Below are positions 8,681 through 21,994 of a DNA stretch of 64,000 nucleotides, one piece after another. The stretch covers positions 3,360,001-3,424,000 of the forward strand of contig OZ243916.1 in NCBI GenBank assembly GCA_965213675.1. Direction: 5' to 3'. Below the pieces are notes generated by a model. The model made no database searches and was not told where the DNA came from. It saw only the letters and a program-made list of their open reading frames with translations. This stretch comes from an uncultured Candidatus Binatia bacterium (lineage in GTDB: Bacteria; Desulfobacterota; Binatia; UBA9968; JAJDTQ01). Made by a program: the position numbers and the translations under genes. Each line of letters starts with the position of its first letter. The stretch's first letter is position 1.

Positions 8681-9142
8681 TCACAAGACGCCTCCCTGGC
8701 GAGGCTGCTGGTCGGCTGACCGCATGAGGTTGCGGTGTTCGCGCATCCGGTAGCTGTTCCCGCGGATGTTGACGATGTGGCAGTGGTGCAGGAGCCGGTC
8801 GATGAGGGCAGCAGCCATGACCTCGTCGCCGAGGACGCTGCCCCAGTCCTCGAAGCCCTTGTTGGAGGTGAGCACGGTGGAGGCGCGTTCGTGCCTGGCG
8901 TTGATGAGCTGGAAGAAGAGCACGGCGCCGTCCTGAGTGACGGGCAGGTAGCCGATCTCGTCCACCACGAGCAAGGCGGGATAGGTAAGGACCCGCAGCC
9001 GGCGGGAGAGCTCGCCTGCGGCCTTGGCCTCCAGCAGCGACTCGATCAGTCCGGCCAAGGTTCCGTAGTAGACGCGGTGGCCGGATTCGGCGGCGGCGAC
9101 GGCCAGGCTGATAGCAAGATGAGTCTTGCCGACCCCGGGCGG
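8681..9142 (-). pseudogene. istB: istB 3' part
   Basis: PGVGKTHLA, LLVVDEIGY, TSNK, DRLLHH and GNSYR. Confidence 0.9.
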
Positions 9143-9150
9143 ACCCGCCA

Positions 9151-9627
9151 CATATTGCCCGTTATCACGGTCGCGAGATAACCATTCGTTACCCGTTCCA
9201 TCCTCGTGCTGGCGAGACGATGGCGGTCATCCGGCGCCACCGGTTCCGTGGCATGAGCGTCTTCGTTGTCAGGCAGCCCGACGGAACGCTGGCGCAGATC
9301 CCTGCATGGATGTGCGCCACGGAGGCGGGCGCGATGTCGGTGACGAAGTCCCCACGCCTTCCAGTGGCCGAACTGCACACGCTTCGCATTACCGTCGACG
9401 CCCTTCTATCATCGCTCTCCAAACCCCCCAACGAAGGAGAGCCACATGGGCAAGAACGGGATTCGTCGTCAGAGAGATCTGCTGAAGCTGTTGGAGCCAG
9501 GGCCGGTGCTCGCACCGGAGTTGCTCAAGTCGGTCGTGCCGCTGCTGGCGACACTGCTGCTGCAAGCGGTGGAAGCCGAGGCGCAAAGCGCCGCGGAAAC
9601 GGTGACGGTGGAGGGAGCGAGCAATGA
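9151..9627 (+). CDS. Small accessory protein of the recombinase element (Y4bD/DUF5372-like), 5' end split by integration
   Basis: The IRYPFHP..G and PDGT..IPAWM motifs begin upstream of the first ATG (9220). Confidence 0.55.
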   Translation, partial: HIARYHGREITIRYPFHPRAGETMAVIRRHRFRGMSVFVVRQPDGTLAQIPAWMCATEAGAMSVTKSPRLPVAELHTLRITVDALLSSLSKPPNEGEPHGQERDSSSERSAEAVGARAGARTGVAQVGRAAAGDTAAASGGSRGAKRRGNGDGGGSEQ

Positions 9628-9631
9628 GTAA
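9446..9631 (+). CDS. Small hypothetical protein of the recombinase element
   Basis: AGGAG RBS before the ATG. The stop overlaps the recombinase start. Confidence 0.45.
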   Translation: MGKNGIRRQRDLLKLLEPGPVLAPELLKSVVPLLATLLLQAVEAEAQSAAETVTVEGASNE

Positions 9632-11577
9632 GGTCTCGGCCGATCATCTCTCCCGTAAGGCGTTTGTCTACATCCGTCAATCCACCCCGGACCAGTTGAG
9701 ACACAATCACGAGAGCCGGCGGCGGCAGTACGGCCTGACGGTGAGAGCCCGGAAGTTGGGATGGGGCGAGACGGTGGTGATCGACGAGGATCTCGGCCGT
9801 TCGGGCAGTGGCACGGCACGGCCGGGGTTCGAGCGGTTGTTGTTGGCGATCTGCGAGGGACGGGTGGGCATTGTCCTGGCGTTGGAGGCTTCACGCCTCG
9901 CCCGCAACGGCCGCGACTGGCACACGCTGCTTGAGTTCTGCGGGCTGGTGGGGTGTCTGCTCGCCGACGAGGAGGGCGTCTACGACCCGCGCCTGCCCAA
10001 CGACCGTCTCCTTCTGGGCATGAAAGGGACCCTGTCGGAGCTTGAGCTGTCCACGATGCGTCAGCGCTCGCTGGAGGCGCTGCGCCAGAAGGCGCGCCGT
10101 GGCGAGCTCCTGCTGAACGTCGCCGTGGGCTACGTGAAGGTTCCGCGAGACCGGATCGTCAAGGATCCCGACCGGCGCGTGCAGGAGGCGATCAGCTTGG
10201 TGTTCCGCAAGTTCTCAGAGTTCCAGAGCGTTCGGCAAGTCCATCTTTGGCTCCGTCAGGAGGAAGTGCTGCTGCCGGCAGTGGACGGCGAGCCGGGTGA
10301 CGGTGGAAGGCGGCCGCAAGCGGGTCAGCCGGGGCCATCGCCGGGACCGCGAGGCCTGGGACGTGTTGATCGTGGATCACCATGAGGGTTATGTTTCCTG
10401 GGAGGAGTTCGAGAGGAACCAGCGTTTGATCGCCGACAACGCCAACTGCAAGGGGTTGATGACACGGGGCGCGGTTCGCCGTGGCGATGCCCTGCTGGCG
10501 GGGCTCTTGCGCTGCGGTCACTGCGGCCGGCGGTTGCATGTTTCCTATAGCGGCACCGACGGCTACTGCGTTCGCTACAGTTGCCGCGGGGCGCACCTCA
10601 ACCATGGGACTCGGCGCTGCATCTCGTTCGGCGGCGTTCGTGTGGACTCGGCGGTTGCCGAGGAGGTGCTACGGCTGTTGAGCCCGTTGGGCATCGAGGC
10701 CTCGGTGGAAGCCGTGACGATGAGGGAGGACAACGTCGCCGAGACGCGGCGCCAGGTGGAGCTGGGTTTGACCCAGGCGCGCTACGAGGCGGATCTTGCG
10801 CGTCGCCAGTACGATGCGGTGGACTCGCAGAACCGGCTGGTGGCGGCGGAGCTCGAGCGCAGATGGAACGAGCGGCTGGCGGAGGTGGCGAGGCAGGAAG
10901 AGCGGTTGGCGGCCACGGCGGCTGTCCAGCCGGATGCCTTGTCCGGCGAGGACAGAGAGCGGCTGCTGGCGCTCGGGGGCGACCTTGAGACGGTCTGGGA
11001 GCACCCCGGCGCCACGGCGGAAACCCGCAAGCGGATACTGCGCGCGGTGCTGGAAGAGATCGTCGCCACCTCGGCCGAGGACCGTATCGAACTCCTGCTG
11101 CACTGGCGCGGTGGCGATCACACCCGCCTGAGCGTTGCCCGCAACCGCACCGGGCAACATCGGTGGCGGACCAGCGCGGAGGTCGGCGAGCTGATCCGCG
11201 GCCTTGCCCGACAGCAGCCGGACAGCGCCATAGCGGCCACGCTGAATCGGCTGGGCAAGCGGACCGGCCGCGGCAACGCATGGACGGAGATGCGGGTCCG
11301 CAGCTTCCGGTGCCATCACACGGTTCCCGTGTACCGGCCGGGCGAGATGGGGGAACGCGGAGAACTCACTCTCAAGGAGACTGCGGGCAGGCTCAGGGTC
11401 AGCACGATGACGGTCCTGCGTCTCATCAGCGCCGGAACGATTACGGCGCGGCAACTCTGCAAGGGGGCGCCCTGGGCGGTGCCGGAGGCGCAGATCACGG
11501 GACTCGAAGGCGCGGAGGTGGTTCCCCACCATCCGCTAACAGCCAACACGGATCAGAAAGAACTGGATTTCCAATAA
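9624..11577 (+). pseudogene. Large serine recombinase (resolvase, recombinase, Zn ribbon, HTH) with internal deletion/frameshift near 10285
   Basis: VYIRQST, DLGRSGSG..RPGF, SRLARN and LLRCGHCG. Split into ORFs 9624-10385 and 10297-11577. Confidence 0.85.
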
Positions 11578-11614
11578 CGTAGAGAGGTGTGCATTATGAA
11601 GCCCGACTCGGCGG

Positions 11615-11950
11615 GCCGATAAAAATGACGTTTTCGCGGCGATCCAGGAAGCCGAGTTCGTGGAGGCTCTCGATCTGCTCGCGCTTGATGCTGGGCTGGA
11701 AGGCGAAGTCGAACTGGGCCAGGGTCTTCACGGCCGGCAGCCGCGACGAGCGCATGGCGGTCTGGAGGCGGCGGTTGTTGCGCAACCCGATCTGGGCGTC
11801 CAACAACTGCTCGATAGCCTCGCTGGCGGTGGCCGCCCCGCTGTCGGCCTGGGCCAGGACGTCGTCGACGGCCTCGAGCGCGCCCGGCATCTTCAGGTCC
11901 GCCAGCATCGCCCGCAGCCGGTCGCGCCGGTTGCCTGCCTCGGCCCTCAT
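11615..11950 (-). pseudogene. istB: istB 5' part
   Basis: KTLAQFDFAFQPSI..ENVIFIGPP. Confidence 0.88.
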
Positions 11951-12969
11951 GACACGGCCTCCGCATAGGCGCTGAGCGAGCGCCGCTCGACGTCTACGGT
12001 GACGGGCAGGGGGCGCCGGGCTTGCTGTGGAAGCGTGTGCATACCAAGGCGCCGATACGGGCAACTCGCCAACGGCAGCAGCGCCTGTAGCTCGTCACGC
12101 TCGAAGCGGTCCACCGGGCGCTCCCTGGTGGTGCCGTGCCAGCGCCGGTTCGCGGTTCCCTCAAGCCACAAGCGCACCTGCTCGTTCAGGTCCTCGTCGT
12201 TCAGGAACTCCCGGCCGTAGAAGAAGTTGTTGCGGATGTAGCGGATCGGGCGCTCCACCTTGCCCTTGGTTTGGGCTCGGTACGGCCGGCATGCCCGAGG
12301 CCGGAACCCCCAGTGCGCGGCGAACCGTAAGAAGTCCGCGTTCAACACCAACTCGCCCCCGCCCGCGCGGCCGTCCGACACCACCACCGAACGCATCTGG
12401 TCGAACTACAGCTCCTGCGGCACCCCGCCGAAGCACTCGAAGGCGCTCTCCAGCCCTTCGATCAGCACTGCCATCGTCTGCCGCCTGTAAAACCGCAGCC
12501 ACAACAGCCGGGAGTGGCTCAGAACCGTCACCAGAGCGTGCCGCCGCCCCCAGGGAAGCGTGAACGTCGCAAAGTCCACCTGCCCCTGCCGTCCCGCCGG
12601 CGTCTCGAACCGCACCACCGCCTCCGCCGTCTCCCGCGGCCGTACCGACCGAACGTACTCCCTCACACGGACGTACCCGCCCGTGTACCCCGCCCCTCGT
12701 ACCTCGTCGTATAGCCGCTTCGCCGACAACCGCGGATACTCCTCCAGTCGCGCCTCGATGATCCCCTTGTACGGATCCAGCTTGTGACACACCGCCGGTC
12801 TCGCCCTGTACCGCGTCCCGCCTCCCGACAGATCCCGGTCTAACTGCCCCGTCTCCACCCACTCGTGGATCGTCCGGCGACTCACCCCGAACCGCCGCGA
12901 CAGCTCCGTCTTCGTTACACCCCGTTCCAGATAGTGCCTAAGCAGCATCCTCGTCTCCCATCCGTGCAT
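11947..12969 (-). pseudogene. istA: istA transposase with in-frame TAG at 12406-12408
   Basis: RFETPAGRQGQVDF, FGGVP..L*FDQM and CRPYRAQTKGKVER. Both ORF pieces are in the same frame. Confidence 0.9.
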
Positions 12970-13089
12970 CTGTGCTCCGCTCCGTTCCTGTTGCTCTTGC
13001 CAACAGCGTGGACCCGAGCACTCACACCGGCAATCAATCTGTGCAGTTTTCGATTGCCATAAATGGGAAATTTACAGTTGCCACCAACA

Positions 13090-13285
13090 ATCCACACCAA
13101 ACCGTCGCGACAACTCCGCCCTGGTCACGCCTCGTTCCAGATAGTGCCTTATCAGCATCCTTGTCTCCCATCCGTGCATCAGTTCGCCGCTCCATTCCTG
13201 TTGGCTTTTCCCAACAGACTGGCCAACGTACACCTCCTCGCAATCTTCTATGTGCGACATCTTCGATTGACACAAATGGGACATT
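13090..13285 (-). mobile_element. IS21 element A left-end remnant with istA N-terminal stub
   Basis: aatgtcccatttgtgtcaatcgaa (inverse of 5861-5884). MHGWETRMLIRHYLERGV (13179 downward) is cut off by element B. Confidence 0.75.
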
Positions 13286-13528
13286 GCATCGCGTACTGCC
13301 GCGTAAGCTTCGTCCTAGCGACTTGACCGGTCTATGAGGAAATCCACCTTATTGGCGGACAGGACGCACCGTGTGGCGTTGACCACGGTCTTTCTCGCTT
13401 ACACCCGACCCGCCGGCATTGACCAAGGTGTCCGTCGGCAGTAAGAGTTTGAACGCGGATTACGCCCCAAGCCATTGATTTTGTTAGAAACGTCTGTACA
13501 CCTTTCAGGCTCTGCATCTCCTTATTCT

Positions 13529-13611
13529 GTTATAACTACAATAATTGTATGAATAGTGTTGGCAACTATGTGATTGTCGTGCTAGACTCTCAGCACTGAC
13601 CATGAGGAGGA
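13529..13611 (+). promoter_or_regulatory. Putative promoter, operator and RBS of the ubiquitin-like operon
   Basis: Palindromes GTTATAAC and TACAAT-A-ATTGTA, TTGGCA-18-TAGACT with TGn, and GAGGAGG RBS. Confidence 0.45.
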
Positions 13612-13617
13612 CCATAA

Positions 13618-13812
13618 ATGGCGAGAAAACCCACGATCCGCGAGCTTGAACAGCTCTTGGAGTCCGAAGAGGATACCCCCATCGAAATACTGCCGAACGG
13701 CGAGATTCGCGCCCGGGGGGGGAGCGATGCCGCAGAGCGGGGCTACAAGAAGCCTCTCACAATGCGAGAGGACCTCGGCGGCGAGTATGGGCGAGGGGGG
13801 ATCCGGGCATGA
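13618..13812 (+). CDS. 64-aa protein, candidate modifier/substrate of the E1-E2-JAB module
   Basis: Strong RBS, ATGA overlap with the next gene, C-terminus LGGEYGRGGIRA. Confidence 0.7.
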   Translation: MARKPTIRELEQLLESEEDTPIEILPNGEIRARGGSDAAERGYKKPLTMREDLGGEYGRGGIRA

Positions 13813-14183
13813 ATCTGACAAGGGTTCGCCATGAGATCGCGGCCGCTCAGCAGTACTTCGACTACGTGGAGGGCCATCCAACCCCTGAAGGAGGCGTGAT
13901 TGCGTTGATCGCCTTGCAGACAAGCAGGGATGTGTACACGATGGCCGTCTCCTTCCCGGAGTCTTACCCGAACGGGATGCCGGAGGTGCATGTCAGGAGG
14001 CCCGCGTTGCGACCATCTCCCCACAGGTACACGGACAACAAAATCTGTTTCTTGCATCCGCGCATGTGGAACCCGGGGCGCCACAACCTCGCGTTCGTGA
14101 TTCAGCGAGCGGCGAAGTGGTTCGCGAAGTACGAGGTATACCTCGAGACAGGAAAATGGGCCGGCGTCGAAATTAAGCACTAG
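13809..14183 (+). CDS. Prokaryotic E2 (UBC-like) conjugating enzyme
   Basis: FPESYPNGMPEV, PHRYTDNKIC (catalytic Cys position), WNP and terminal GKWAG. Confidence 0.75.
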   Translation: MNLTRVRHEIAAAQQYFDYVEGHPTPEGGVIALIALQTSRDVYTMAVSFPESYPNGMPEVHVRRPALRPSPHRYTDNKICFLHPRMWNPGRHNLAFVIQRAAKWFAKYEVYLETGKWAGVEIKH

Positions 14184-14187
14184 TACG

Positions 14188-14718
14188 ATGGCGATCGAAT
14201 TCAAGCCATTGCCGATGATGGCATTGCGAAGCAGGCCCGGCGAGGTCCTGGATGAGGTGTCCCGAGATGGCGCAGCGTTCCTCATCGAGAGAAACGGGCA
14301 ACAGAAGGCTTGTCTTGTACCGATATCGTACTTCCTTCCAGACATTCAGACGTCCCGCGTCGCGGAGGAGTTGGACAAGATCATCGACTCGAACGAGCAC
14401 TACCGGATCACAATCAGCGGCCAGCGGGAGATTCAACTCATATTCCGGGAGTTCAGTGGCGAAACGCAGGTCGACGTGACGGTAACGCTACCCCACGGCT
14501 ATCCGAACAAAGCGCCGGTTGTATACGCGGCGCCGATCGATGACGGGTGTCCACACCGTTGGCCGGATGGGACGTTGTGCATATACGGTGCCGTAGCTGT
14601 GTGGAACCCAGGAAAACACGACGTGATGCACGCGGTGGCGCTGTTCAGACGGTGGATCCAGCACTACTCGGTTTGGCGGCAGGCCGGACAATGGCCGACG
14701 GAGGGAACTGAACCATGA
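14188..14718 (+). CDS. Phd/YefM antitoxin-like domain fused to an E2-like domain
   Basis: N-terminal ALRSRPGEVLDEV..AFLIERNG..ACLVP. C-terminal LPHGYPNKAPVV, PHRWPDGTLC, WNP and GQWP. Confidence 0.72.
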   Translation: MAIEFKPLPMMALRSRPGEVLDEVSRDGAAFLIERNGQQKACLVPISYFLPDIQTSRVAEELDKIIDSNEHYRITISGQREIQLIFREFSGETQVDVTVTLPHGYPNKAPVVYAAPIDDGCPHRWPDGTLCIYGAVAVWNPGKHDVMHAVALFRRWIQHYSVWRQAGQWPTEGTEP

Positions 14719-15566
14719 AGGGTCGGTTGTTCGCGAGGATCGAACAGCTATTCGATGTGAAGGCGTTCGAAGACCTTTGGGTGTTGATTGCAGGGTGCGG
14801 ATCGGGCGGTGGCCAAGTGGCGCTGCAGTTGGCCATGTCTGGAGTGAAGAAGTTCATCCTGGCGGACACGGATAAGCTGGAAGTGGAAAATGTTATCCGG
14901 CACGTCTGCGGGATCCGGTACCTGGGTTGGAAGAAGACGGCGGCCCTTGCTGACGTCTTGAGTGACCGCAACCCGCAGATCGAAGTCAAAGAATTTTACG
15001 GCGACGTAACAGCGTGGCCGAGACTGGCAGAGGAGGTCGAGCGCGCGAGCGTTGTAGTCTTGGGGACGGACAACGAACCGAGCCGGTATCGGCTGAACGA
15101 GGTCTGTGTGGAAACGGCGACGCCGTTCACGGTTGGTCGAGTCTTTACGCGAGGAATTGGGGGTGAGGTGTACTCCTACAGGCCCGGGATCGGCGGCTGC
15201 CTGGCCTGCCTTGAGGGGCTTCTTGAGCGGAGCCAATACCGCGACGGTGTCAGGGAAATCGACCTCGTTTCGGAGGAGGAGCGGCAGAAGGTGTACGACC
15301 TTGAAATCGAGGAGATCAAGGACTCGCCCGGCCTATCGGTGGATATCGGGTTCATCGCAGCCTTCCACACGCGGTTCACTTTGGACGCACTGGGCCACGA
15401 AGCGGAGTCCCCACCTAAGTTTATGACGCCGATCGACCATAACTACCTAGTGTGGGGAAATCGAGCCGTGTACCCGTTCTCGAAGAACTTCGAACTGCAG
15501 CGCATGAAGCTGCCACCGCAGGACGGATGTCTGGTTTGTGGAGGACAAGATGAAGGCCAAGAGTAA
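14715..15566 (+). CDS. ThiF/E1-like adenylating enzyme
   Basis: GCGSGG, DTDKLEVENVIRH, K, TDN and two CxxC motifs (CLAC, CLVC). Confidence 0.9.
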   Translation: MKGRLFARIEQLFDVKAFEDLWVLIAGCGSGGGQVALQLAMSGVKKFILADTDKLEVENVIRHVCGIRYLGWKKTAALADVLSDRNPQIEVKEFYGDVTAWPRLAEEVERASVVVLGTDNEPSRYRLNEVCVETATPFTVGRVFTRGIGGEVYSYRPGIGGCLACLEGLLERSQYRDGVREIDLVSEEERQKVYDLEIEEIKDSPGLSVDIGFIAAFHTRFTLDALGHEAESPPKFMTPIDHNYLVWGNRAVYPFSKNFELQRMKLPPQDGCLVCGGQDEGQE

Positions 15567-16467
15567 GGTGCGGGAGGTACGCTTGGAGATCCCGGGAGTC
15601 GTCCTGGAGAGCGTGTTCGAGGAGTGCGACCGCTATGACCGCGAAGAGACGGGGGGGCGCGTGGTAGGCCATTTCACCATAGATTTCGGGACGCTGGTGG
15701 TGCACGTCGGGGGAGTGATTGAGCCGGGTCCAAATGCCCACCGCACAAGCACCAGCTTCTTTCAAGACGGCGATCACCAAGCTGAGGTGTTCCGCCAACT
15801 CGAGGCGGAAGACCCATCGATCGAGCATCTTGGCAACTGGCATACACATCATGTGAACGGATTTCCGAGGCTGAGTGCAGGCGACGTGGCGACCTATCGC
15901 CGGATCGTGAACCACCAGTTACACAACCTGGATTTCTTCTACGCATTGCTTGTGACGAATAGAAACGAAGGCCGGACCGGACTGGACCGATATGCAGTAC
16001 GGCACCACGTGTTGTTTCGTGGTGAAGAGGCCGTCCACGAAATCCGACCGGCCGATGTACACGTAACGGTCGGGCCGAGGATCTGGCCAAAGGAGGCAGA
16101 CTCTTCCACACAAGCTCCTGGCGCAGGTGGCGCAGAGGACGACGGGGCGCGCGGGATTGTTGAAGTACGGGGGCGGGACCAAAGTGTCCTAGGCGTGCTG
16201 TGCCCCTCGATGGAACCCCGGGTGTCAAACCAAACGGGAACGTTCTTTTGGAAGGGTTCGCTGCCGTTAATCGACGGGTCCACGGTAGAGATTCGGGTCG
16301 CCGAAGTCGAAGACGACGGCGGACTGCTCTACTACCCCATCGTCTCAGGCGTGTCGGCGGATGTGGCTGAGTTGTGCGAAACACCATTCCCGAGCGCGTC
16401 CCACGCGGTCCGTGCGTTGGAGTCGCAGATAAATCGGGAGATTTACGAGTCCGCGATAAGGCGGTGA
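15550..16467 (+). CDS. JAB/MPN+ metallo-isopeptidase with C-terminal extension
   Basis: ETGG and GNWHTHH....LSAGD. GGAGGA RBS before ATG 15550. Confidence 0.85.
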   Translation: MKAKSKVREVRLEIPGVVLESVFEECDRYDREETGGRVVGHFTIDFGTLVVHVGGVIEPGPNAHRTSTSFFQDGDHQAEVFRQLEAEDPSIEHLGNWHTHHVNGFPRLSAGDVATYRRIVNHQLHNLDFFYALLVTNRNEGRTGLDRYAVRHHVLFRGEEAVHEIRPADVHVTVGPRIWPKEADSSTQAPGAGGAEDDGARGIVEVRGRDQSVLGVLCPSMEPRVSNQTGTFFWKGSLPLIDGSTVEIRVAEVEDDGGLLYYPIVSGVSADVAELCETPFPSASHAVRALESQINREIYESAIRR

Positions 16468-16477
16468 GGGCCAAAAT

Positions 16478-17302
16478 ATGGAAGTGTTGACGCTTTACGT
16501 CGGACAAGGGAATTTCGCCGTCATCCGCCACGGTAGGCAGGCTATCGCAGTGGACACTCGGTGGCTTGCTGACCAATCAGACGATATCGAGTCGACGGTG
16601 GGCCGCTTCCTGCAACGGCGGGAACTTGTGGGCGTCGTGTTGACCGGGTTTGATGACGATCACGCCGATCCCGTCGGGCTGGACTGGTTTCTTGAGAACT
16701 ATACGCCCGGCTGGGTGATGTACCCAAAATACTACAAGGATACCGACAACGCGGAAGCGGTCTTCAACGTGGTTCGGAAGCACGAGCGGCGTCGCCAGGG
16801 CACAGCAAACCCGCTTGAGCGCGTTTCTGTACGGCTTGATCGGCTGGAGTCCCGGTACCTCGATGATCTGTCGGAGGAATTCCAGCTAGAGTTGTTCTCA
16901 CCCCACGTCGAGGACATGGACAGCTCTAACAACTGCAGCATCGTGCTGAAGGTGGAAGGAATCGGTCCGGGCGGATTTACATACTTGGTTACGGGCGACA
17001 CGGAGGTCCCCCGGTGGGACCGGATCGTCCAACTTTTCGACGACGCGTTGGACTCGGACGTTCTGGCGGCGCCACACCACGGATCGAAAAACGCCGCTCA
17101 CCCTGGGATGGTCTTGGCGGTCACACCGAACACGGTGCTTATCAGCGCGGGAGTCGACAACCAGTACGGGCACCCGGACAGAAAAGCGGTGCAGTTGTAT
17201 CTGCGGGTGGCGAAGCGCGTATTTCGGACAAACGTGCGGAACGGAATTTCGCTTCTCACAAGGCGAAACGGCGGGGAGTTCCAGACTACCCGTGTGCGTT
17301 AA
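16478..17302 (+). CDS. ComEC/Rec2-type metallo-beta-lactamase-fold hydrolase
   Basis: YVGQG, TGFDDDH (variant of HxHxDH), NNCSIV, TGD, APHHGS and ISAG..NQYGHP. Confidence 0.88.
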   Translation: MEVLTLYVGQGNFAVIRHGRQAIAVDTRWLADQSDDIESTVGRFLQRRELVGVVLTGFDDDHADPVGLDWFLENYTPGWVMYPKYYKDTDNAEAVFNVVRKHERRRQGTANPLERVSVRLDRLESRYLDDLSEEFQLELFSPHVEDMDSSNNCSIVLKVEGIGPGGFTYLVTGDTEVPRWDRIVQLFDDALDSDVLAAPHHGSKNAAHPGMVLAVTPNTVLISAGVDNQYGHPDRKAVQLYLRVAKRVFRTNVRNGISLLTRRNGGEFQTTRVR

Positions 17303-17462
17303 CGGTCGATGGAATTTTCTTCTGCCCATTGGCGCCACCAACATCCTGGCGCTCTTAGGCGAGCCCTAGACTGAATGATTGGGAACACTTCCAATGCGTT
17401 GGGGCTCTTCAACACAACGGTGTGGAACGGGAAAAGCCCAAACAACCCGAGAGGAACGAATT

Positions 17463-18587
17463 ATGACCTTTGAACTACCAACACGCGGGCTCGTTTTTTG
17501 GCCAGTCGGAAACGGTGACAGCACCACCATCGTCATCGACCCCAAGACCTGTCTCCAGATAGACCTCAACCACCTCGAGAAATCCGAGGACGACGACGCC
17601 TCTTGGCCCGTGGTTGATGAACTTGTCAAGCACCTGCCCAAAGTCAACCGCCGCCCCTATCTCGCTGCGTTCGCGCTCACACATCCTGATCAGGACCATT
17701 GCCGGGGCTTCGCCAAACTCCTCAACGAAGTCGATATCGGTGAATTGTGGTTTACACCTAGAGTGTTCCGTGAGTACAAGAAGGACCTCTGCGACGACGC
17801 GGTGGCATTCAAGAAGGAGACGGAACGCCGCGTTCAGAAGGCTATCGACGCCAAGCACGCCCCAGGCTCGGGCGACCGCATTCGGGTCTTCGGCTACTCC
17901 GACCTGCTGGAAGAGGACGACTTCAAGGATTTCCCCAAGGATCGCCTAACTGTCCCCGGTAATGAACTTACCGTCGTCGACGAGAAGGACTTGGCTGGCC
18001 ACTTCCGCGCCTTCGTCCACGCTCCGTTCAAAGATGATGACGCGGGCGAGCGGAACGATACGAGCCTCGCCATGCAAGTCACGCTCCACGCTGGCCCGCA
18101 AAGACTTCGCGCGCTCCTTCTTGGAGACCTTCCCTACCCGATCATCAAGCGCATCTTCGCGATTAGTGACGCCGAGGACCTCGCCTGGAATGTGCTCCTC
18201 GCACCCCACCACTGCTCGAAGGCCGTAATGTACTGGAAGAATGACGGCGACGACGACGAGAAGCTCAAAAAGCACATCGTCGACGAAATGGACGAGGCGG
18301 CACAGGACCCGAATCGTGTCGTATCCAGCTCCAATCCCGTGCCGTCATCCAACAAGGCTGGCGACAACCCGCCTCACGCCAAGGCAAAGACGCAGTACGA
18401 GACCATCACCGACTCCTTCCTGTGTACGATGGACCAGGATGAACCTATCGTGGCTGAACTTGACCACCAAAGGATCGTTCTCGCCGGGGTTGCGACGGCC
18501 TCCAAGTCCGCATCGCAGGCCGCAGACGAAGCGCGCGGCTCAAACAGACCCCCCGACGGCGCCCACACCTACGGCTGTGGCAAATGA
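17463..18587 (+). CDS. ComEC-like MBL hydrolase with a conjugation-type C-terminal tail
   Basis: FWPVGNGDS, THPDQDH, NDTS, GD and APHHCS. Ends HTYGCGK. Confidence 0.85.
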   Translation: MTFELPTRGLVFWPVGNGDSTTIVIDPKTCLQIDLNHLEKSEDDDASWPVVDELVKHLPKVNRRPYLAAFALTHPDQDHCRGFAKLLNEVDIGELWFTPRVFREYKKDLCDDAVAFKKETERRVQKAIDAKHAPGSGDRIRVFGYSDLLEEDDFKDFPKDRLTVPGNELTVVDEKDLAGHFRAFVHAPFKDDDAGERNDTSLAMQVTLHAGPQRLRALLLGDLPYPIIKRIFAISDAEDLAWNVLLAPHHCSKAVMYWKNDGDDDEKLKKHIVDEMDEAAQDPNRVVSSSNPVPSSNKAGDNPPHAKAKTQYETITDSFLCTMDQDEPIVAELDHQRIVLAGVATASKSASQAADEARGSNRPPDGAHTYGCGK

Positions 18588-21500
18588 GTAATGGCTACAC
18601 GCTCGCTGGCGAACAGCTAAGGGAGATCGCCGAAACATCGGAAGGCACCGTTCAAATTCATGACGAAACCACACGGCCAAGCGGCTACCGCCAGTTCGAC
18701 GTAAGCATGCGCTTCGACGGCCTTCAACGTGTCGAAGACGGACTTGCAGTGCGAGCCCGTGAGCCATTCCGCGTCATTGTTTCACCTGCCTTCCCTTTCA
18801 AACATCCCGTTGTCGAGACGCCTCACTCTCGTTTCGCCGGCTTCCGGCACGTACAGTGGCGGCGGAGCCCCTGCCTGTACCAAAGCTCCTCCGATTGGGG
18901 CCCAAGCGACGGCATGTACGGCTTCATTACGCGCCTCGACGCCTGGATACGCGACGCCGCACTTAACAATCTCGACCCGGACGACGCACCCCTCCACCCA
19001 CCAGTCGAGTACCCCACGGTCCATCGCCTAATTGTGCCCAAGGCAAATACGCCGGCGGTCTCTGGCACGCCATGGTTTGGATTCGCCAAACTCCGCGAAA
19101 GGAACCATCGCACCGAGATCATTGGATGGGAAGAGAACAGCCAAGAAGGCTCTGACTTCGCGCCTGCAATCCTCCTCCACGAGAATCTTCCCTTCGAATA
19201 CCCCGAAACTGTCCACGCTCTACTGAAAGAACTCGAATTCCACGGAATCGACTATGTGCCCTTTGTCTTCCGACTTGCCGCCCAGGCACGACGCAGCGAC
19301 GCAGGCACACCGCTAACCGTAGTTCTTGGAACTCCGATGCGCCGCGTCGACCCGGGGGGGCCTACCCTTCAGCACTTGGCCGTGTGGGAGATTTCTGCCG
19401 ACGACGCGGACAAGCTGCGCGAGCTGAACATCTCCGCGCAGTTCCGCGGGTCACCGCGATGGGAAGCCGCGACGACGGCGGTCGCCGAATGGGCTGTGTT
19501 TGCCAAGGTGGGGTGGTGCATCGTCCGTGAGATGCGGCCCGAAGTGACCAGCAGACGCGACCATTCATCAGCCATGGCTTGGTTTCGTGGAAAGCGTGTG
19601 GCCATCTGGGGTTGCGGCGCCGTAGGCACTCACGTGGCGGAATCGATTGTACGCGCCGGGGCCAGAACCGTTGAACTCGTCGACAACAAGACTGTTGCAC
19701 CCGGTCTCCTAGTACGGCAAGTCTTCGAAGACGCCGACATCGGAGAGTTTAAGGCCCAAGCGCTCGCCGAACGACTTAAACGGATCGAACCTGACCTCGA
19801 GACACATGTTTCAACCGACGACCTTGTCCTACGTATCATAGGTCCACACCCGGTCCCGGAGGTGGACTTGATAGTCGACTGCACAGCTTCATCGGCCGTT
19901 CAGACAGCCCTCGAGCGAGCACTCCAGGCCGTCGACTCACGCCCCGCGATAGCTGCTGTATCCATCGATAGCCAAGCCGCCACGGCCATTGCCACTCTCT
20001 CTTCGCGCAACCACAGCGGTGCGACCCTCGACCTTGTTCGCCGGCTCAAGCTGGAAGCATGTAGCACACCGGCGCTTTCGAAGGTCCTTGAGGCATTCTG
20101 GCCAAGAACAACGCCAAGTGAGCGCTTTCAGCCAGAGCCCGGCTGTTCGGAACCGACGTTCATCGGTTCCGACGCAGATCTTGCCGCGCTATCTGCGCGC
20201 ATGCTGAATTCCATCACTCACGCTATTGGAAACCCCCGCGATGGCCACACGGGGGCAGGTTGGTTGTTGGAAGAATCGGGAGCGTTACGTGGTTTCGCGT
20301 GGCCTCCGGACCACACCCTGAGGGATGAGGGGCGGGGCTACTCCGTCAGGGTATCTTCACTGGCCGCGCGGGAAATGCGAGGATGGGCTAGGCGTTCCGC
20401 ACGTACGGTCGGCTCAACAGTCGAGACGGGCGGCCTCGTCTTCGGCGAGCTCAACGAAGCCGCGACCGTTCTCTGGGTAACAGATGTCGAGGGACCGCCA
20501 CCCGACAGCGAGGCAGCTGGGGATCATTTCACCTGCGGCACGGACGGCATGGAAACCGTTGCCCAAGAAAGGCAACGCAGGTTCCGTGGATCTGTAGACT
20601 GCCTCGGTAGTTGGCACACCCACCCAACGTCAGCACCCCATCCAAGTCGCGTCGACATCGGCGCTGTCATACAGCTTCTCGCCAACCCGGGTTCGACCCG
20701 TCGAACTTGCCTTGTTTTGATCCTCTCTGGTGACCCGGATGACCCAAGACTGGGCGCGTATGCCTTCAGAACAAAACTAGTCGGCGAAACGCTCATCCGC
20801 ATCCAACCAAGCGCGGCTGCAACCGCGTCCCTTGGGCCAAAGCCAAAGAAACCGCGCAACATCGGAACTGCCCTCTCAGGCGGAGGCTCGCGCGCCATCG
20901 CGTTCCACCTCGGGTGCCTGCGCGCCCTGCACGACCTCGATCTACTCAGCCGTGTTCAGGTAATTTCGAGCGTCTCCGGCGGGTCTATAATCGCGGCCAT
21001 GTACGCCTATTCTTGCGACTCGTTTCGGGAGTTTGACGCGCGTGTTGTAGAGCTTCTTCATCGAGGATTCAAACGGGATATCTTCCGCGAGGTGTTCAAG
21101 CTGGTTTCAATTGGGAAGATCCTGCGACGCCATGTCAGGGCGACCGCGTCTTTCCTATCTCGCACGTTCCTTCGGCTACTTCACGCCGTCGTGAGACCGG
21201 TTGTGGCTCATCGCCAAGGCCCGCCGCCGACCCGCACGTTCAGCCGCACGGAGGCGTTTCGCGACATCATTGCCACCTCCCAATTCGGTGACACCATCGT
21301 ACGCGACGTCGCCCGACATTCACTCCATACGGTCATCAATGCCACAGAACTACGAACCGGCTCCGCATTTCGGTTCGGAAGCAGCCAAAGCGGCTGCTGG
21401 CGATTCGGCACGATTCCCCCCGAAGACGCTCTGGTTGCAGACGCCGTGGCTGCCTCGGCGGCGTACCCGGCACTCTTCCCGGCACTCGAGCGCGAGTACC

Positions 21501-21994
21501 GCTTCACGAAGAACGGGTCCAGCACCGATGCCGCGCGCGTTCTGCTTACCGACGGTGGGGTCTTTGAGAACCTCGGCGTGAATCCGATGGAGCCGGGCCG
21601 GACACCTTCGGTCACCACTAACGTCTTCGACCCCGACTACATTATTTGCTGCGACGCGGGTGCTGGTCTATTCGATGATGACAGCTACCCGACACGTTTG
21701 CACACCCGGATATACAGATCGTTCCTCACGGTCTTTCGCAAGGTCCAAGACGCCACCCGAAAACGCCTACACCACCTTGCCGACGCCGGGGAAATCTCCG
21801 GCTTCGCGTTATGCTATCTCGGGCAGCAGGACAATGCCTTGCCCTGGGTACCAGCAGGTCTTCCTAGAAGGGATGAGGTTCGAGATTACCCTACCGACTT
21901 CGCCGCGATGTCAACGGAAGACGTCGATCGGTTAGCTCTCCGTGGAGAACTCCTGATGAGGCTTCTCGTTGCGTACTACCTCCCAGACCTCTAA
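18584..21994 (+). CDS. E2-E1(ThiF)-JAB-patatin phospholipase fusion
   Basis: E2: FPFKHP..HVQW..PCLY. E1: GCGAVG, LVRQ, DCTA, EPGCSEPTF. JAB: ETGG, GSWHTHP..PS..D. Patatin: LSGGGSRA, SVSGG, DGG. Confidence 0.85.
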   Translation: MSNGYTLAGEQLREIAETSEGTVQIHDETTRPSGYRQFDVSMRFDGLQRVEDGLAVRAREPFRVIVSPAFPFKHPVVETPHSRFAGFRHVQWRRSPCLYQSSSDWGPSDGMYGFITRLDAWIRDAALNNLDPDDAPLHPPVEYPTVHRLIVPKANTPAVSGTPWFGFAKLRERNHRTEIIGWEENSQEGSDFAPAILLHENLPFEYPETVHALLKELEFHGIDYVPFVFRLAAQARRSDAGTPLTVVLGTPMRRVDPGGPTLQHLAVWEISADDADKLRELNISAQFRGSPRWEAATTAVAEWAVFAKVGWCIVREMRPEVTSRRDHSSAMAWFRGKRVAIWGCGAVGTHVAESIVRAGARTVELVDNKTVAPGLLVRQVFEDADIGEFKAQALAERLKRIEPDLETHVSTDDLVLRIIGPHPVPEVDLIVDCTASSAVQTALERALQAVDSRPAIAAVSIDSQAATAIATLSSRNHSGATLDLVRRLKLEACSTPALSKVLEAFWPRTTPSERFQPEPGCSEPTFIGSDADLAALSARMLNSITHAIGNPRDGHTGAGWLLEESGALRGFAWPPDHTLRDEGRGYSVRVSSLAAREMRGWARRSARTVGSTVETGGLVFGELNEAATVLWVTDVEGPPPDSEAAGDHFTCGTDGMETVAQERQRRFRGSVDCLGSWHTHPTSAPHPSRVDIGAVIQLLANPGSTRRTCLVLILSGDPDDPRLGAYAFRTKLVGETLIRIQPSAAATASLGPKPKKPRNIGTALSGGGSRAIAFHLGCLRALHDLDLLSRVQVISSVSGGSIIAAMYAYSCDSFREFDARVVELLHRGFKRDIFREVFKLVSIGKILRRHVRATASFLSRTFLRLLHAVVRPVVAHRQGPPPTRTFSRTEAFRDIIATSQFGDTIVRDVARHSLHTVINATELRTGSAFRFGSSQSGCWRFGTIPPEDALVADAVAASAAYPALFPALEREYRFTKNGSSTDAARVLLTDGGVFENLGVNPMEPGRTPSVTTNVFDPDYIICCDAGAGLFDDDSYPTRLHTRIYRSFLTVFRKVQDATRKRLHHLADAGEISGFALCYLGQQDNALPWVPAGLPRRDEVRDYPTDFAAMSTEDVDRLALRGELLMRLLVAYYLPDL

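What the first reader, a model, noticed from the sequence alone, without database searches (positions are those of the whole stretch)
13618..13812. 64-aa candidate novel modifier with a cryptic GG/YG tail
Seen: first gene of the operon, strong GAGGAGG RBS, charged and Gly-rich, ending REDLGGEYG-RGGIRA (two GG motifs plus aromatic-Gly). Known: E1s adenylate a C-terminal Gly/Ala, JABs trim propeptides, CD-NTase tails often end aromatic-G/A, and Pup ends GGE/Q. Inference: the JAB exposes ..LGG or ..EYG and the protein is ligated to targets as a non-beta-grasp tag. The module B MBL also has YG plus a short extension.
Basis: partly seen in the sequence, partly recalled or inferred. Interest (0 to 1): 0.8.

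Follow-up and report, generated by a model that had tools for sequence, protein, structure and literature searches.

The report
Conserved non-ubiquitin mini-tag beside E1/E2
The small first gene of this bacterial ubiquitin-type enzyme operon is real and very strongly conserved up to an ...LGGEY end. It does not look like ubiquitin, it is predicted to put that end into the activating enzyme, and it also occurs alone in phage genomes, so it may be a new kind of protein tag in bacterial defence against phages.

Summary
The 64-aa ORF (13618-13812, +) is a real gene. It has hundreds of homologues, dN far below a saturated dS, and a GAGGAGG ribosome-binding site.

In 73 of 75 species-representative loci from more than 15 phyla, an E2 gene follows it directly, in the fixed order small gene, active E2, Phd-fused pseudo-E2, ThiF-type E1, JAB, MBL nuclease.

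Conservation runs from residue 5 to an invariant LGGEY (Y57) and stops there. 26 of 75 genes end exactly at Y57. Longer tails, including the window's GRGGIRA, mostly cover the E2 gene's Shine-Dalgarno site and overlapping start.

Structure models give a helix, a beta-hairpin and a floppy tail, not a beta-grasp. A complex model with controls docks the hairpin and residues 46-57 onto the E1, touching its nucleotide loop and TDN motif (ipSAE 0.75, best control 0.01).

Best reading (about 0.55): a dedicated non-beta-grasp modifier, activated at Y57 by the E1, passed to the E2 and trimmed or recycled by the JAB, in a split relative of the 6A-MBL/type II CBASS defence machinery.

Unexpectedly, 18 viral contigs carry orphan copies with the same motifs and no E1 or E2. 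No family, structure or paper searched describes this protein.

The parts
13559..13588 (+). sigma-70-like promoter candidate (TTGGCA, 18 nt, TAGACT, TG before the -10)
   Evidence: Consensus match only: 3 found in the region against 2.2 expected from shuffles.
13604..13610 (+). Shine-Dalgarno GAGGAGG, 7 nt before the ATG
   Evidence: read from the sequence
13618..13788 (+). Conserved core of the small protein, residues 1-57: helix about 7-14, hairpin about 22-32 (IEILPNGE), then K45-PLTMRE-D-LGGEY57
   Evidence: Alignments. Invariant in 62 orthologues: L14 E17 I24 L25 P26 N27 G28 E29 K45 P46 E51 L53 G54 G55 E56 Y57. Models. Predicted E1 contacts: residues 19, 21-28 and 46-57.
13789..13812 (+). 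Variable 7-residue tail GRGGIRA plus stop. It holds the E2 gene's Shine-Dalgarno-like GAGGGGGG (13792-13799) and overlaps its ATG (13809)
   Evidence: The tail is absent in 26 of 75 loci. 32 of 49 tailed genes overlap the E2 start.
13809..14183 (+). E2a, active-type E2 (124 aa): invariant H72, C80, H83 and WNP; invariant C-terminal His
   Evidence: PADLOC E2 models down to 5.7e-13. Pfam UQ_con 0.0073, below its cut-off. Conservation in 72 sequences.
14188..14718 (+). E2b: Phd/YefM-like N-terminal domain plus an E2/UEV-like domain whose Cys is not conserved (pseudo-E2)
   Evidence: Pfam PhdYeFM 2.8e-5, RWD 0.01, UEV 0.049, all below their cut-offs. PADLOC E2 4.2e-8. Window C131 is not conserved in 69 sequences.
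14715..15566 (+). ThiF/MoeB-type E1 (283 aa): GxGxxG loop 27-32, T118-D119-N120, two CxxC pairs (162/165, 272/275)
   Evidence: Pfam ThiF 8.2e-27, 94 bits, cut-off 28. Invariants in 62 sequences. Predicted partner of the small protein.
15538..16467 (+). JAB/JAMM peptidase with a roughly 150-residue C-terminal extension. E37, H102, H104, S113 and D116 are conserved. The true start is probably the ATG at 15550.
   Evidence: Pfam Prok-JAB 25.2 bits, cut-off 25. PADLOC JAB 5.5e-18. Conservation.
16478..17302 (+). MBLa, an MBL-fold hydrolase like the ComEC/Rec2 nuclease domain. Its C-terminus is not conserved.
   Evidence: NCBIfam TIGR00361 7.3e-26, below its cut-off. C-termini. Conserved metal-site residues.
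17379..18587 (+). Module B: 6A-MBL system MBL-fold enzyme (MBLb), ending AHTYG plus CGK
   Evidence: NCBIfam NF058524, 280.5 bits, cut-off 220. C-termini.
18584..21994 (+). Module B: E2-E1-JAB (Cap2_3-like) fused to a patatin-like phospholipase (1136 aa)
   Evidence: Pfam Prok-E2_A, ThiF, Prok-JAB and Patatin, all above their cut-offs. PADLOC E1-E2 2.1e-90.

Best explanation
The gene encodes a dedicated small protein modifier that is not a ubiquitin-fold protein. It has a short helix, a beta-hairpin (IEILPNGE) and a flexible tail ending LGGEY.

Proposed mechanism:
1. The hairpin and the PLTMREDLGGEY tail dock on the operon's ThiF-type E1, so that the C-terminal carboxylate of Tyr57 reaches the ATP site and is adenylated.
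2. The activated protein passes to the catalytic Cys80 of E2a, possibly helped by the Cys-less, UEV-like E2b.
3. It is then joined to an amino group on a target: the system's own MBL or patatin effectors, or a phage protein.
4. The JAB peptidase removes the non-conserved residues after Y57 where they exist (7 in this window) and reverses conjugates.

The whole unit is a split relative of the Cap2/Cap3 machinery of type II CBASS and 6A-MBL defence systems. In this version a separate 57-residue protein has taken over the role of C-terminal donor.

Status of each step:
- Shown here: the gene is real, its conservation pattern, the fixed operon order, and intact catalytic motifs in the enzymes.
- Predicted by a model: docking on the E1.
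- Inferred only: adenylation at Tyr57, transfer to E2a, JAB trimming, the targets, and a role in defence.
For: 1. Fixed operon.
- An E2a hit lies directly downstream in 73 of 75 genome loci. The exceptions are L050, at a contig end, and L074.
- Under strict thresholds all five other genes are present in 56 of 75 loci and four in 9 more.
- The loci come from Gammaproteobacteria, Binatia, Gemmatimonadota, Acidobacteriota, Planctomycetota, Verrucomicrobiota, Omnitrophota, Elusimicrobiota, Myxococcota, Nitrospirales, a Methanosarcinales archaeon and others.

2. Conservation typical of a C-terminal donor.
- L53 G54 G55 E56 Y57 are invariant in 62 orthologues, and conservation ends there.
- 26 of 75 genes stop right after Y57.
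- 13 of the 248 database homologues that contain GGEY end at Y.

3. No other donor in the module.
- The MBLa C-terminus is not conserved.
- In module B and its relatives the MBL does end in a conserved G plus 2-3 residues.

4. Complex model: E1 x2, small protein residues 1-57, 2 ATP.
- ipSAE 0.75, 0.48 and 0.75 in three runs, median 0.75; best of 3 controls 0.01.
- In the tool's calibration this mark was reached by 58 of 80 solved complexes and 2 of 110 mismatched pairs. The counts hold only roughly here, because I used my own alignments and ATP rode along.
- The runs agree in at least 56% of contacts. The partner's pLDDT is at least 48.
- Contacts: small-protein residues 19, 21-28 and 46-57 with E1 residues 30-31 (GxGxxG loop), 117-120 (T-D-N), 141-151, 169-175 and 244-270.
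- That these loops form the adenylation site of ThiF/MoeB-type E1s is established knowledge that I recall, not something tested here.

5. The contacted residues are the most conserved ones. Mean conservation is 0.90 at the 21 interface positions and 0.63 elsewhere. The E1 contact segments carry many invariant residues.

6. The enzymes look active.
- E2a keeps H72, C80 and H83.
- The JAB keeps E37, H102, H104, S113 and D116.
- The E1 keeps its G-loop, D119 and two CxxC pairs.

7. Not a beta-grasp.
- AF2 gives helix 7-14 and a hairpin 22-32, with the rest unstructured (pLDDT 65).
- In a second model, of homologue P0205, the helix and hairpin blocks reach pLDDT 82-92.
- Foldseek found no PDB match at E<=0.001.

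8. Defence context.
- Module B next door is a bona fide 6A-MBL system.
- 22 of 75 loci have a patatin-like gene beside the operon.
- The gene was found in only 1 of 40 related genomes searched, and it is flanked by IS fragments.
Against: - The conserved end is a bulky Tyr. As far as I recall, E1/E2 systems activate a C-terminal Gly or Ala, so Tyr has no precedent there. The alternative cut after G55 cannot be excluded.
- I cut the chain at Y57 myself, so the model could not choose the terminus. The tool does not list which small-protein residue touches E1 30-31 and 117-120; that it is 55-57 is my inference.
- The model may partly recall the geometry of solved E1-Ubl tail complexes, and the partner's own fold is uncertain (pLDDT 49-60).
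- 18 viral contigs carry orphan copies that keep LGGEY and the hairpin without E1, E2 or JAB within 6 kb. ThiF was absent from all 5 whole viral records searched. So the motif has, or also has, a role that needs no cognate E1, unless those copies act on host enzymes.
- 49 of 75 genes have tails that would have to be removed, and JAB cleavage there is only inferred.
- There is no experimental or expression evidence of any kind.
Confidence: 0.55

Rival explanations
1. Pseudo-substrate or regulatory subunit. The small protein binds the E1 (and perhaps E2a or E2b) through its hairpin and tail but is never transferred. It gates or scaffolds the enzymes, for example by holding the adenylation site closed until infection. 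The real substrate would be another protein.
For: - The same binding model fits this reading.
- A C-terminal Tyr is an odd acyl donor.
- Very high conservation fits a subunit with several partners.
- One database protein, P0150, is a natural fusion of the small protein to E2a.
- Tails ending in Ala-Ala are frequent (35 of the tails of 12 residues or fewer) and resemble degradation tags. That resemblance is recalled, not tested.
Against: - No other protein of the module has a conserved C-terminus that could be the donor, except E2a's terminal His.
- Invariance of the last five residues up to a natural stop is typical of a reactive terminus.
- P0150 is 1 of 150 listed proteins and could be a read-through or a gene-calling artefact.
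- The Ala endings are partly forced by the ATGA overlap, which requires the last codon to end in A.
Confidence: 0.2
2. Phage-protein mimic used as bait or sensor, or the reverse. The family is primarily a phage protein. The operon either keeps a copy so that its enzymes recognise the phage version as a substrate or trigger, or so that a phage activity on the host copy starts the response. Alternatively, the phage copies are decoys that jam the host E1.
For: - 18 of 80 pattern matches in IMG/VR are confirmed homologues, none with the operon.
- Their neighbours are phage genes. A portal gene lies directly upstream in L080, L084 and L092, with scaffold and major head genes downstream. L085 sits between the major head and Neck1 genes. 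Others lie near helicase, polymerase, RusA, HNH and terminase genes.
- Viral copies have long branches and lie at the base of the tree.
- Most of the 326 clusters at 50% identity are too divergent to be the tightly conserved operon type (inference).
- Viral copies keep the predicted E1-contact residues, with identity to the defence consensus of 0.78 against 0.38 elsewhere. They lose the defence-invariant E17 and E18.
- 0 of 16 viral copies end at Y57, against 26 of 75 operon copies.
Against: - The viral loci were found with patterns built on the same motifs, so their motif conservation is partly by construction.
- The tree has only 57 columns, is unresolved and is rooted only at the midpoint.
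- The position in phage genomes varies, so no single phage role emerges.
- 50,697 GenBank phage records gave no match.
- Nothing shows that the hosts of these phages carry the operon.
Confidence: 0.15
3. Precursor or carrier for non-protein chemistry. The E1 adenylates the C-terminus to make a thiocarboxylate sulfur carrier (as with MoaD/ThiS) or a modified peptide product (as with MccA/MccB), with no ligation to proteins.
For: - The E1 is closest to the ThiF/MoeB/SAMP-E1 models.
- Recalled: E1-like enzymes can act on non-beta-grasp peptides with non-Gly ends, as in the MccB-MccA case.
Against: - The operon always carries an active-type E2 and a JAB, which sulfur-transfer and microcin systems lack. 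That they lack them is recalled.
- The listed hits show no rhodanese, sulfurtransferase, exporter or immunity gene.
- The neighbours are defence-type.
Confidence: 0.04
4. The MBL enzyme is the conjugated species, as is proposed for 6A-MBL, and the small ORF is an unrelated accessory or leader gene.
For: - By analogy with Cap2-type pathways, which are said to conjugate their own signalling enzymes (PMC11601596, discussion passage).
- The MBLa end in the window, GGEF..., looks superficially like GGEY.
Against: - The MBLa C-terminus is variable in sequence and length across 58 orthologues, and the GGEF is not conserved.
- The small protein is under strong purifying selection over its whole length.
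- The small protein is the chain predicted to dock on the E1.
Confidence: 0.04

Closest known systems
6A-MBL anti-phage system (Iyer et al. 2006, row 6a; validated by van den Berg et al. 2024)
   Same: - It has E2, E1 and JAB activities plus an MBL-fold enzyme, is sporadically distributed and has a defence role.
- Module B of this window is a member: MBLb scores 280 bits against NF058524, cut-off 220.
- The module A E1 and JAB give weak hits to its cap2_3 model (44 bits).
   Different: - In module A the E2, E1 and JAB are separate genes.
- Module A adds a second, Cys-less E2 fused to a Phd-like domain.
- Its MBL is ComEC-like with a non-conserved C-terminus.
- It adds the 57-64-residue protein, which 6A-MBL lacks.
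- All module A proteins score far below the 6A-MBL cut-offs.
- Sources: I read passages and section 14 of the 2006 paper. The 2024 paper is not held, and I know it only through citing passages.
Type II CBASS Cap2/Cap3 (Ledvina et al. 2023; Jenson et al. 2023)
   Same: - An E1/E2 pair activates a C-terminus that does not belong to a ubiquitin fold, and a JAB (Cap3) reverses or trims it.
- PADLOC E1-E2, E2 and JAB models hit the module A proteins.
   Different: - In CBASS the donor is the CD-NTase enzyme's own tail, and Cap2 is a fusion.
- Here no CD-NTase is present and the donor would be a free-standing mini-protein ending in Tyr.
- Sources: details of the CBASS papers are recalled or come from a listing and abstract and from passages in PMC11601596.
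Bil and Bub bacterial ubiquitination-like systems (Chambers 2024; Hor 2024; PMC11601596)
   Same: - A separate small modifier gene is encoded with separate E1, E2 and peptidase genes.
- The peptidase can trim a pre-protein to expose the reactive end (passage).
- Bil conjugates its modifier to a phage structural protein (passage).
   Different: - Their modifiers are beta-grasp Ubls. This one is modelled as a helix plus hairpin plus tail, and no beta-grasp is found.
- Bub works through oxyester intermediates and a serine protease.
Pup (prokaryotic ubiquitin-like protein)
   Same: It is about 60 residues long, largely disordered, not a beta-grasp, and has a Gly-Gly-acidic motif at the C-terminal end. 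These Pup properties are recalled, not tested.
   Different: - No sequence relation: Pfam gave no hit for the small protein at E<=0.1.
- Pup is ligated by PafA through the side chain of its last residue and serves the proteasome (recalled).
- This operon has E1, E2 and JAB instead, and the motif is followed by an invariant Tyr.
MccA-MccB and related E1-like peptide adenylation
   Same: An E1-like adenylating enzyme acts on a short, non-ubiquitin polypeptide with a non-Gly C-terminal residue (recalled).
   Different: Those systems have no E2 or JAB, and they make a small-molecule antibiotic rather than a protein conjugate.

Membership tests
Ubiquitin-like (beta-grasp) modifiers | beta-grasp fold of about 70 or more residues | tested here: not met
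   - The core is 57 residues.
- AF2 gives one helix, one hairpin and a disordered tail (pLDDT 65).
- In homologue P0205 the helix and hairpin blocks reach pLDDT 82-92.
- Foldseek against the PDB gives 0 matches at E<=0.001.
- A profile search of PDB sequences gives 0 at E<=1.
- The models have only moderate confidence.
Ubiquitin-like (beta-grasp) modifiers | C-terminal Gly (Gly-Gly) as the activated residue, exposed directly or after trimming | tested here: inconclusive
   - G54-G55 are invariant but are always followed by invariant E56-Y57.
- 26 of 75 genes end at Y57 and none ends at G55.
- A cut after G55 cannot be excluded.
Ubiquitin-like (beta-grasp) modifiers | adenylated by a cognate E1 and transferred through an E2 to a lysine | not testable with these tools
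   Only a docking model is available: ipSAE 0.75 against a best control of 0.01.
Pup | Pup sequence family; PafA ligase and Dop deamidase encoded nearby | tested here: not met
   - No Pfam or NCBIfam hit for the small protein.
- The operon genes are E2, E2-like, ThiF, JAB and MBL.
6A-MBL defence system | MBL-fold enzyme matching NF058524 and a Cap2_3 fusion matching NF058523 above their cut-offs | tested here: not met
   - Module A: MBLa scores 38.7 bits (cut-off 220); E1 44.5 and JAB 44.4 bits (cut-off 320).
- Module B meets the MBL criterion at 280.5 bits. Its E2-E1-JAB-patatin protein was not scanned against NCBIfam.
Type II CBASS | CD-NTase gene whose C-terminus is the Cap2 substrate | tested here: not met
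   No CD-NTase appears among the operon proteins in the Pfam and PADLOC scans. The only PADLOC cyclase hit is to the E2-like end of a fused model.
Phd/YefM antitoxins (for E2b, annotated as such in RefSeq) | full antitoxin domain above the family cut-off, paired with a toxin gene | tested here: not met
   - Pfam scores 24.2 bits (cut-off 29.8) and TIGR01552 15.7 bits (cut-off 20.8), over residues 9-47 only.
- The rest of the protein is E2/UEV-like.
- There is no toxin gene in the operon.

The most novel reading that the evidence does not exclude
A new class of protein modifier.
- It is a 57-residue helix-hairpin-tail protein that ends in tyrosine.
- It shares ancestry with a widespread phage protein.
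- A bacterial E1 activates it and an E2/UEV-like pair ligates it onto phage or host proteins to stop infection.
- Phages answer with orphan, tail-capped copies that keep the E1-binding surface but cannot be used, so they act as molecular decoys of a tag.
Probability: 0.25. Interest if true: 0.9.

Novelty: new variant of a known kind. Interest (0 to 1): 0.8.

Why it matters
- Every bacterial E1/E2 conjugation system described in the papers I could read uses either a ubiquitin-fold protein (Bil, Bub) or the tail of the system's own enzyme (type II CBASS, Pycsar, 6A-MBL).
- A free-standing, non-beta-grasp donor would show that the E1-E2 chemistry needs only a hairpin and a tail. That would widen the search space for protein tags and give a minimal handle for engineering.
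- The conservation across bacterial phyla and one archaeon is at a level I would compare with ubiquitin's. That implies several simultaneous binding partners.
- The orphan phage copies offer a directly testable case of either capture of a phage protein by a defence system or mimicry of a host tag by phages.
- The operon is present on a plasmid of a cultured Mesorhizobium strain, so the ordinary biochemical and phage-challenge tests are feasible.

Tried and rejected
Readings rejected
- Pup-like or beta-grasp identity: no family hit, no PDB sequence relative, no fold match.
- The second GG and the EYG end as motifs: not conserved. The tail carries the E2 gene's Shine-Dalgarno site and overlapping start.
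- MBLa GGEF as a twin of GGEY: not conserved.
- Repeat proteins with 5-8 matched stretches (P0166, P0208, P0222, P0236, P0243, P0251): these are TPR proteins without the motifs and are spurious.
- Apparent small-protein/E2 fusions in L026 and L043: tblastn had read through a stop. Both genes end at GGEY followed by a stop.

Searches that returned nothing
- ESM Atlas: no usable hit.
- PHROGs and PADLOC: no family for the small protein.
- GenBank phages: no match with the window protein or with a viral copy.
- Expression: no RNA holder listed.

Steps left unfinished
- The Cys-rich module of P0205 was modelled at pLDDT 48-65, so I ran no fold search on it.
- The tree is too short to give a direction of transfer. 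I left out L018, L026, L027, L043 and L073, which my ORF filter dropped, and L093 and L094, which have no GGEY. Two pairs of viral rows are identical.

Literature
- Searches found no description of this protein or of the seven-gene arrangement.
- Not held: van den Berg 2024, Burroughs 2009 and Burroughs 2011. These papers, and supplementary files in general, may hold relevant operon tables that I could not see.
Full report
THE OBSERVATION

The ORF runs from ATG 13618 to TGA 13810-13812 on the + strand and encodes 64 residues.
- GAGGAGG lies at 13604-13610, 7 nt before the ATG.
- A sigma-70-like site lies at 13559-13588. It is a consensus match only.
- Upstream there are only IS21-like fragments and a split serine recombinase, so this is the first gene of the same-strand cluster.
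- Its stop overlaps the next gene's start (ATGA, 13809-13812).

IS IT A REAL GENE?

Yes.
- A word-indexed search found 592 clusters at 90% identity. The best 120 are 75-98% identical and nearly all are 64 residues long.
- An exhaustive HMMER search found 326 clusters at 50% identity with E<=1e-3 and 66 with E<=1e-10. Among the 150 listed, six are long TPR proteins that match only through repeats and lack the motifs. I discount them.
- 41 orthologues have exactly 57 codons up to the conserved Tyr. Of their 820 pairs, 265 gave a usable estimate, with median dN 0.26, dS 1.63 and ratio 0.14. Close pairs show dN 0.02-0.05 against dS near 1.

WHERE CONSERVATION ENDS

- In 62 orthologues L14, E17, I24-E29 (ILPNGE), K45, P46, E51 and L53-G54-G55-E56-Y57 are invariant. 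Nothing after Y57 is conserved.
- Of the 263 stored homologues of 300 residues or fewer, 248 contain GGEY. In those 248 the next residue is G in 122, A in 50, and absent in 13.
- In the 75 species-representative loci, 26 genes stop immediately after Y57. One search lists 21 of them. L018, L026, L027 and L043 show it, and L073.
- extracted 70 genes. 20 of the 21 tail-less genes are followed by a 2-21 nt spacer before the E2 gene, and the 21st (L050) sits at a contig end. 32 of the 49 tailed genes overlap the E2 start by 1-23 nt. The 16 tailed genes that have a spacer carry tails of 2-6 residues.
- In the window the tail codons contain GAGGGGGG (13792-13799), the E2 gene's Shine-Dalgarno-like element.
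- The RGGIRA tail, with its second GG, is therefore best read as a footprint of translational coupling. The functional end is LGGEY.

THE OPERON

Pfam, PADLOC and NCBIfam scans and conservation in 58-72 orthologues give the following.
- E2a (13809-14183): invariant H72, C80, H83 and WNP, with an invariant terminal His.
- E2b (14188-14718): a Phd/YefM-like N-terminal domain joined to an E2/UEV/RWD-like domain. The Cys at the catalytic position is not conserved, so this is a pseudo-E2.
- E1 (14715-15566): ThiF-type, 94 bits, with the GxGxxG loop at residues 27-32, T118-D119-N120 and two CxxC pairs.
- JAB (15538-16467): the E...HxH...S..D residues are intact, and there is an extra C-terminal region.
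- MBLa (16478-17302): ComEC-like, with conserved metal-site residues and a non-conserved C-terminus.
- Module B follows. MBLb (17379-18587) is a 6A-MBL enzyme (280 bits, cut-off 220). The 1136-residue protein at 18584-21994 is an E2-E1-JAB fusion joined to patatin.

The order small gene, E2a, E2b, E1, JAB, MBLa recurs widely.
- An E2a hit lies directly downstream in 73 of 75 loci.
- All five partner genes are found under strict thresholds in 56 of 75 loci.
- The loci span more than 15 phyla and include one archaeon.
- A patatin-like gene is adjacent in 22 of 75 loci and an MBLb-like gene in 8 of 75.
- RefSeq annotates the same operon on a Mesorhizobium sp. AR10 plasmid. There the small gene is called hypothetical and E2b an antitoxin.
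- Among 40 relatives of the window's genome, only 1 has the gene. That is the patchy distribution of an accessory island.

FOLD AND PARTNER

- AF2 on the family alignment gives helix 7-14 and a hairpin 22-24/30-32, with a disordered rest (pLDDT 65).
- A model of homologue P0205 gives the same helix and hairpin, with block pLDDT of 82-92.
- Foldseek finds nothing at E<=0.001, and the PDB holds no sequence relative. The protein is not a beta-grasp.

- The verdict was that the model supports binding.
- ipSAE was 0.75, 0.48 and 0.75 in three runs, median 0.75. The best of three controls was 0.01.
- In the tool's calibration this mark was reached by 58 of 80 solved complexes and 2 of 110 mismatched pairs. 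The counts hold only roughly here, because I used my own alignments and a ligand rode along.
- The runs share at least 56% of contacts. The partner's pLDDT is at least 48.
- The hairpin (residues 19, 21-28) and the tail (46-57) touch E1 residues 30-31, 117-120, 141-151, 169-175 and 244-270.
- From what I recall of ThiF/MoeB-type enzymes, 27-32 is the nucleotide loop and D119 the catalytic or Mg aspartate. On that basis the modelled tail runs into the adenylation site.
- The contacted residues are also the most conserved ones (0.90 against 0.63).

Caveats:
- I chose the Y57 end myself.
- The tool does not print the pair list for E1 residues 30-31 and 117-120.
- Solved E1-Ubl complexes may have guided the model.

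MECHANISM

- The most economical reading is a dedicated donor protein. The E1 adenylates the Y57 carboxylate, and E2a Cys80 takes the thioester.
- The Cys-less E2b may position an acceptor. The analogy with UEV-E2 pairs is recalled, not tested.
- The JAB would trim tails where they exist and reverse conjugates, as the papers I read state for Cap3 and BilC (passages).
- In module A no other protein offers a conserved C-terminus except E2a's terminal His.
- In the fused 6A-MBL-type module B the MBL itself ends in a conserved Gly plus 2-3 residues, which fits the published view that Cap2-type pathways conjugate their own enzyme.
- Module A thus looks like a version in which the donor role moved to a separate mini-protein.
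- I put this at about 0.55. Binding to the E1 is more likely than that, at about 0.7. The chemistry at a C-terminal Tyr is the weakest link.

THE UNEXPECTED PART

- A scan of IMG/VR found 18 confirmed homologues among 80 pattern matches.
- None has E2a, E2b, E1, JAB or an MBL within 6 kb at E<=1e-3.
- ThiF is absent from all 5 whole viral records searched, three of which are 94-99% complete.
- One record has a sub-threshold JAB-like match elsewhere in its genome.
- The neighbours are clearly phage genes.
  - A portal gene lies directly upstream in L080, L084 and L092. In L092 an 83-residue Cys-rich ORF lies between the two.
  - Scaffold and major head genes lie downstream in L080 and L084.
  - L085 sits between the major head and Neck1 genes.
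  - Other copies lie near helicase, polymerase, methyltransferase, HNH, RusA and terminase genes.
- All 16 viral copies that reach the C-terminus keep LGGEY, and none ends at Y57.
- They keep the predicted E1-contact residues (0.78 identity to the defence consensus, against 0.38 elsewhere) but not the defence-invariant E17 and E18. Part of this is by construction, because the scan patterns were built on those motifs.
- In a 57-column tree the viral copies have long branches and are basal or interspersed. The tree is unresolved.
- The one operon-less genome locus with sequence downstream, L074, groups with a viral copy.
- Some divergent homologues are fused to a Cys-rich module that is a separate neighbouring ORF in L092.
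- I cannot tell whether the defence system captured a phage protein, as bait or as a targeting tag, or whether phages copy the host tag as a decoy. Both are testable.

COMPARISON WITH WHAT IS KNOWN

- Iyer et al. 2006 described the two-gene type 6a, an E2-E1-JAB fusion plus an MBL (passages and section 14). Module B belongs there. Section 14, the only part I read in full, describes neither the separate-gene form nor the small gene.
- 6A-MBL is cited as a validated anti-phage system (passages). The primary paper is not held.
- The module A proteins fall far below the 6A-MBL cut-offs.
- The small protein has no Pfam, NCBIfam, PHROGs or PADLOC family, no Atlas neighbour, and no mention in seven literature searches.
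- I therefore file it as a new variant of a known kind: known enzymes with a new type of donor.

VERDICT

The conserved end is Y57, the extra tail is incidental, and the E1 docking model passes its controls.
- The phage orphans add an open question.
- Interest 0.8.

Noticed in passing
window 14188-14718: E2b joins a Phd/YefM-like N-terminal domain to an E2-fold domain whose catalytic-position Cys is not conserved in 69 orthologues. It looks like a UEV-like partner for the active E2a. RefSeq calls it an antitoxin.
   Followed up: partly
window 13809-14183: E2a always ends in an invariant histidine (H124). It is the only other conserved C-terminus in the module.
   Followed up: no
window 17379-18587; L005, L006, L007, L008, L052: The 6A-MBL-type enzyme ends in a conserved Gly followed by 2-3 variable residues (AHTYG+CGK/RG/RA, or PRAG+2). 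That fits the idea that its own tail is trimmed and conjugated.
   Followed up: partly
window 18584-21994: A Cap2_3-like E2-E1-JAB protein is fused to a patatin-like phospholipase in one 1136-residue ORF. In other loci patatin is a separate gene next to module A (22 of 75).
   Followed up: partly
window 8681-13337: The region holds IS21-like IstB and IstA fragments, with a duplicated IstA N-terminus (12406-12969 and 13072-13284, both on the - strand). A large serine recombinase is split over two overlapping frames (9624-10385 and 10297-11577). Together they suggest a decayed mobile-element edge just upstream of the operon.
   Followed up: no
window 22257-23312 (-): A class 3 lipase gene (Pfam Lipase_3, 9.8e-23) converges on the end of module B.
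   Followed up: no
L092:5736-5984 and protein P0205: A Cys/His-rich module (about 8 Cys) is a separate ORF between the portal gene and the small-protein homologue in one phage. In another homologue it is fused after GGEY. Other divergent homologues carry Cys-rich N-terminal extensions (P0259, P0253, P0186).
   Followed up: partly
L080:5995-7065: In one viral contig the homologue runs on in frame, without a stop after GGEYG, into a signal-peptide-like segment and a beta-rich domain of about 290 residues. This may be a real fusion or a missed internal start.
   Followed up: no
L088 and L090 (one viral contig): The same 82.8-kb viral contig carries two diverged copies of the small-protein homologue about 50 kb apart.
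   Followed up: no
L064, L065, L068: A few genome loci lack the Phd-E2b gene, or have a truncated E2a, while keeping the small gene, E1 and JAB. These may be decaying or alternative forms of the system.
   Followed up: no
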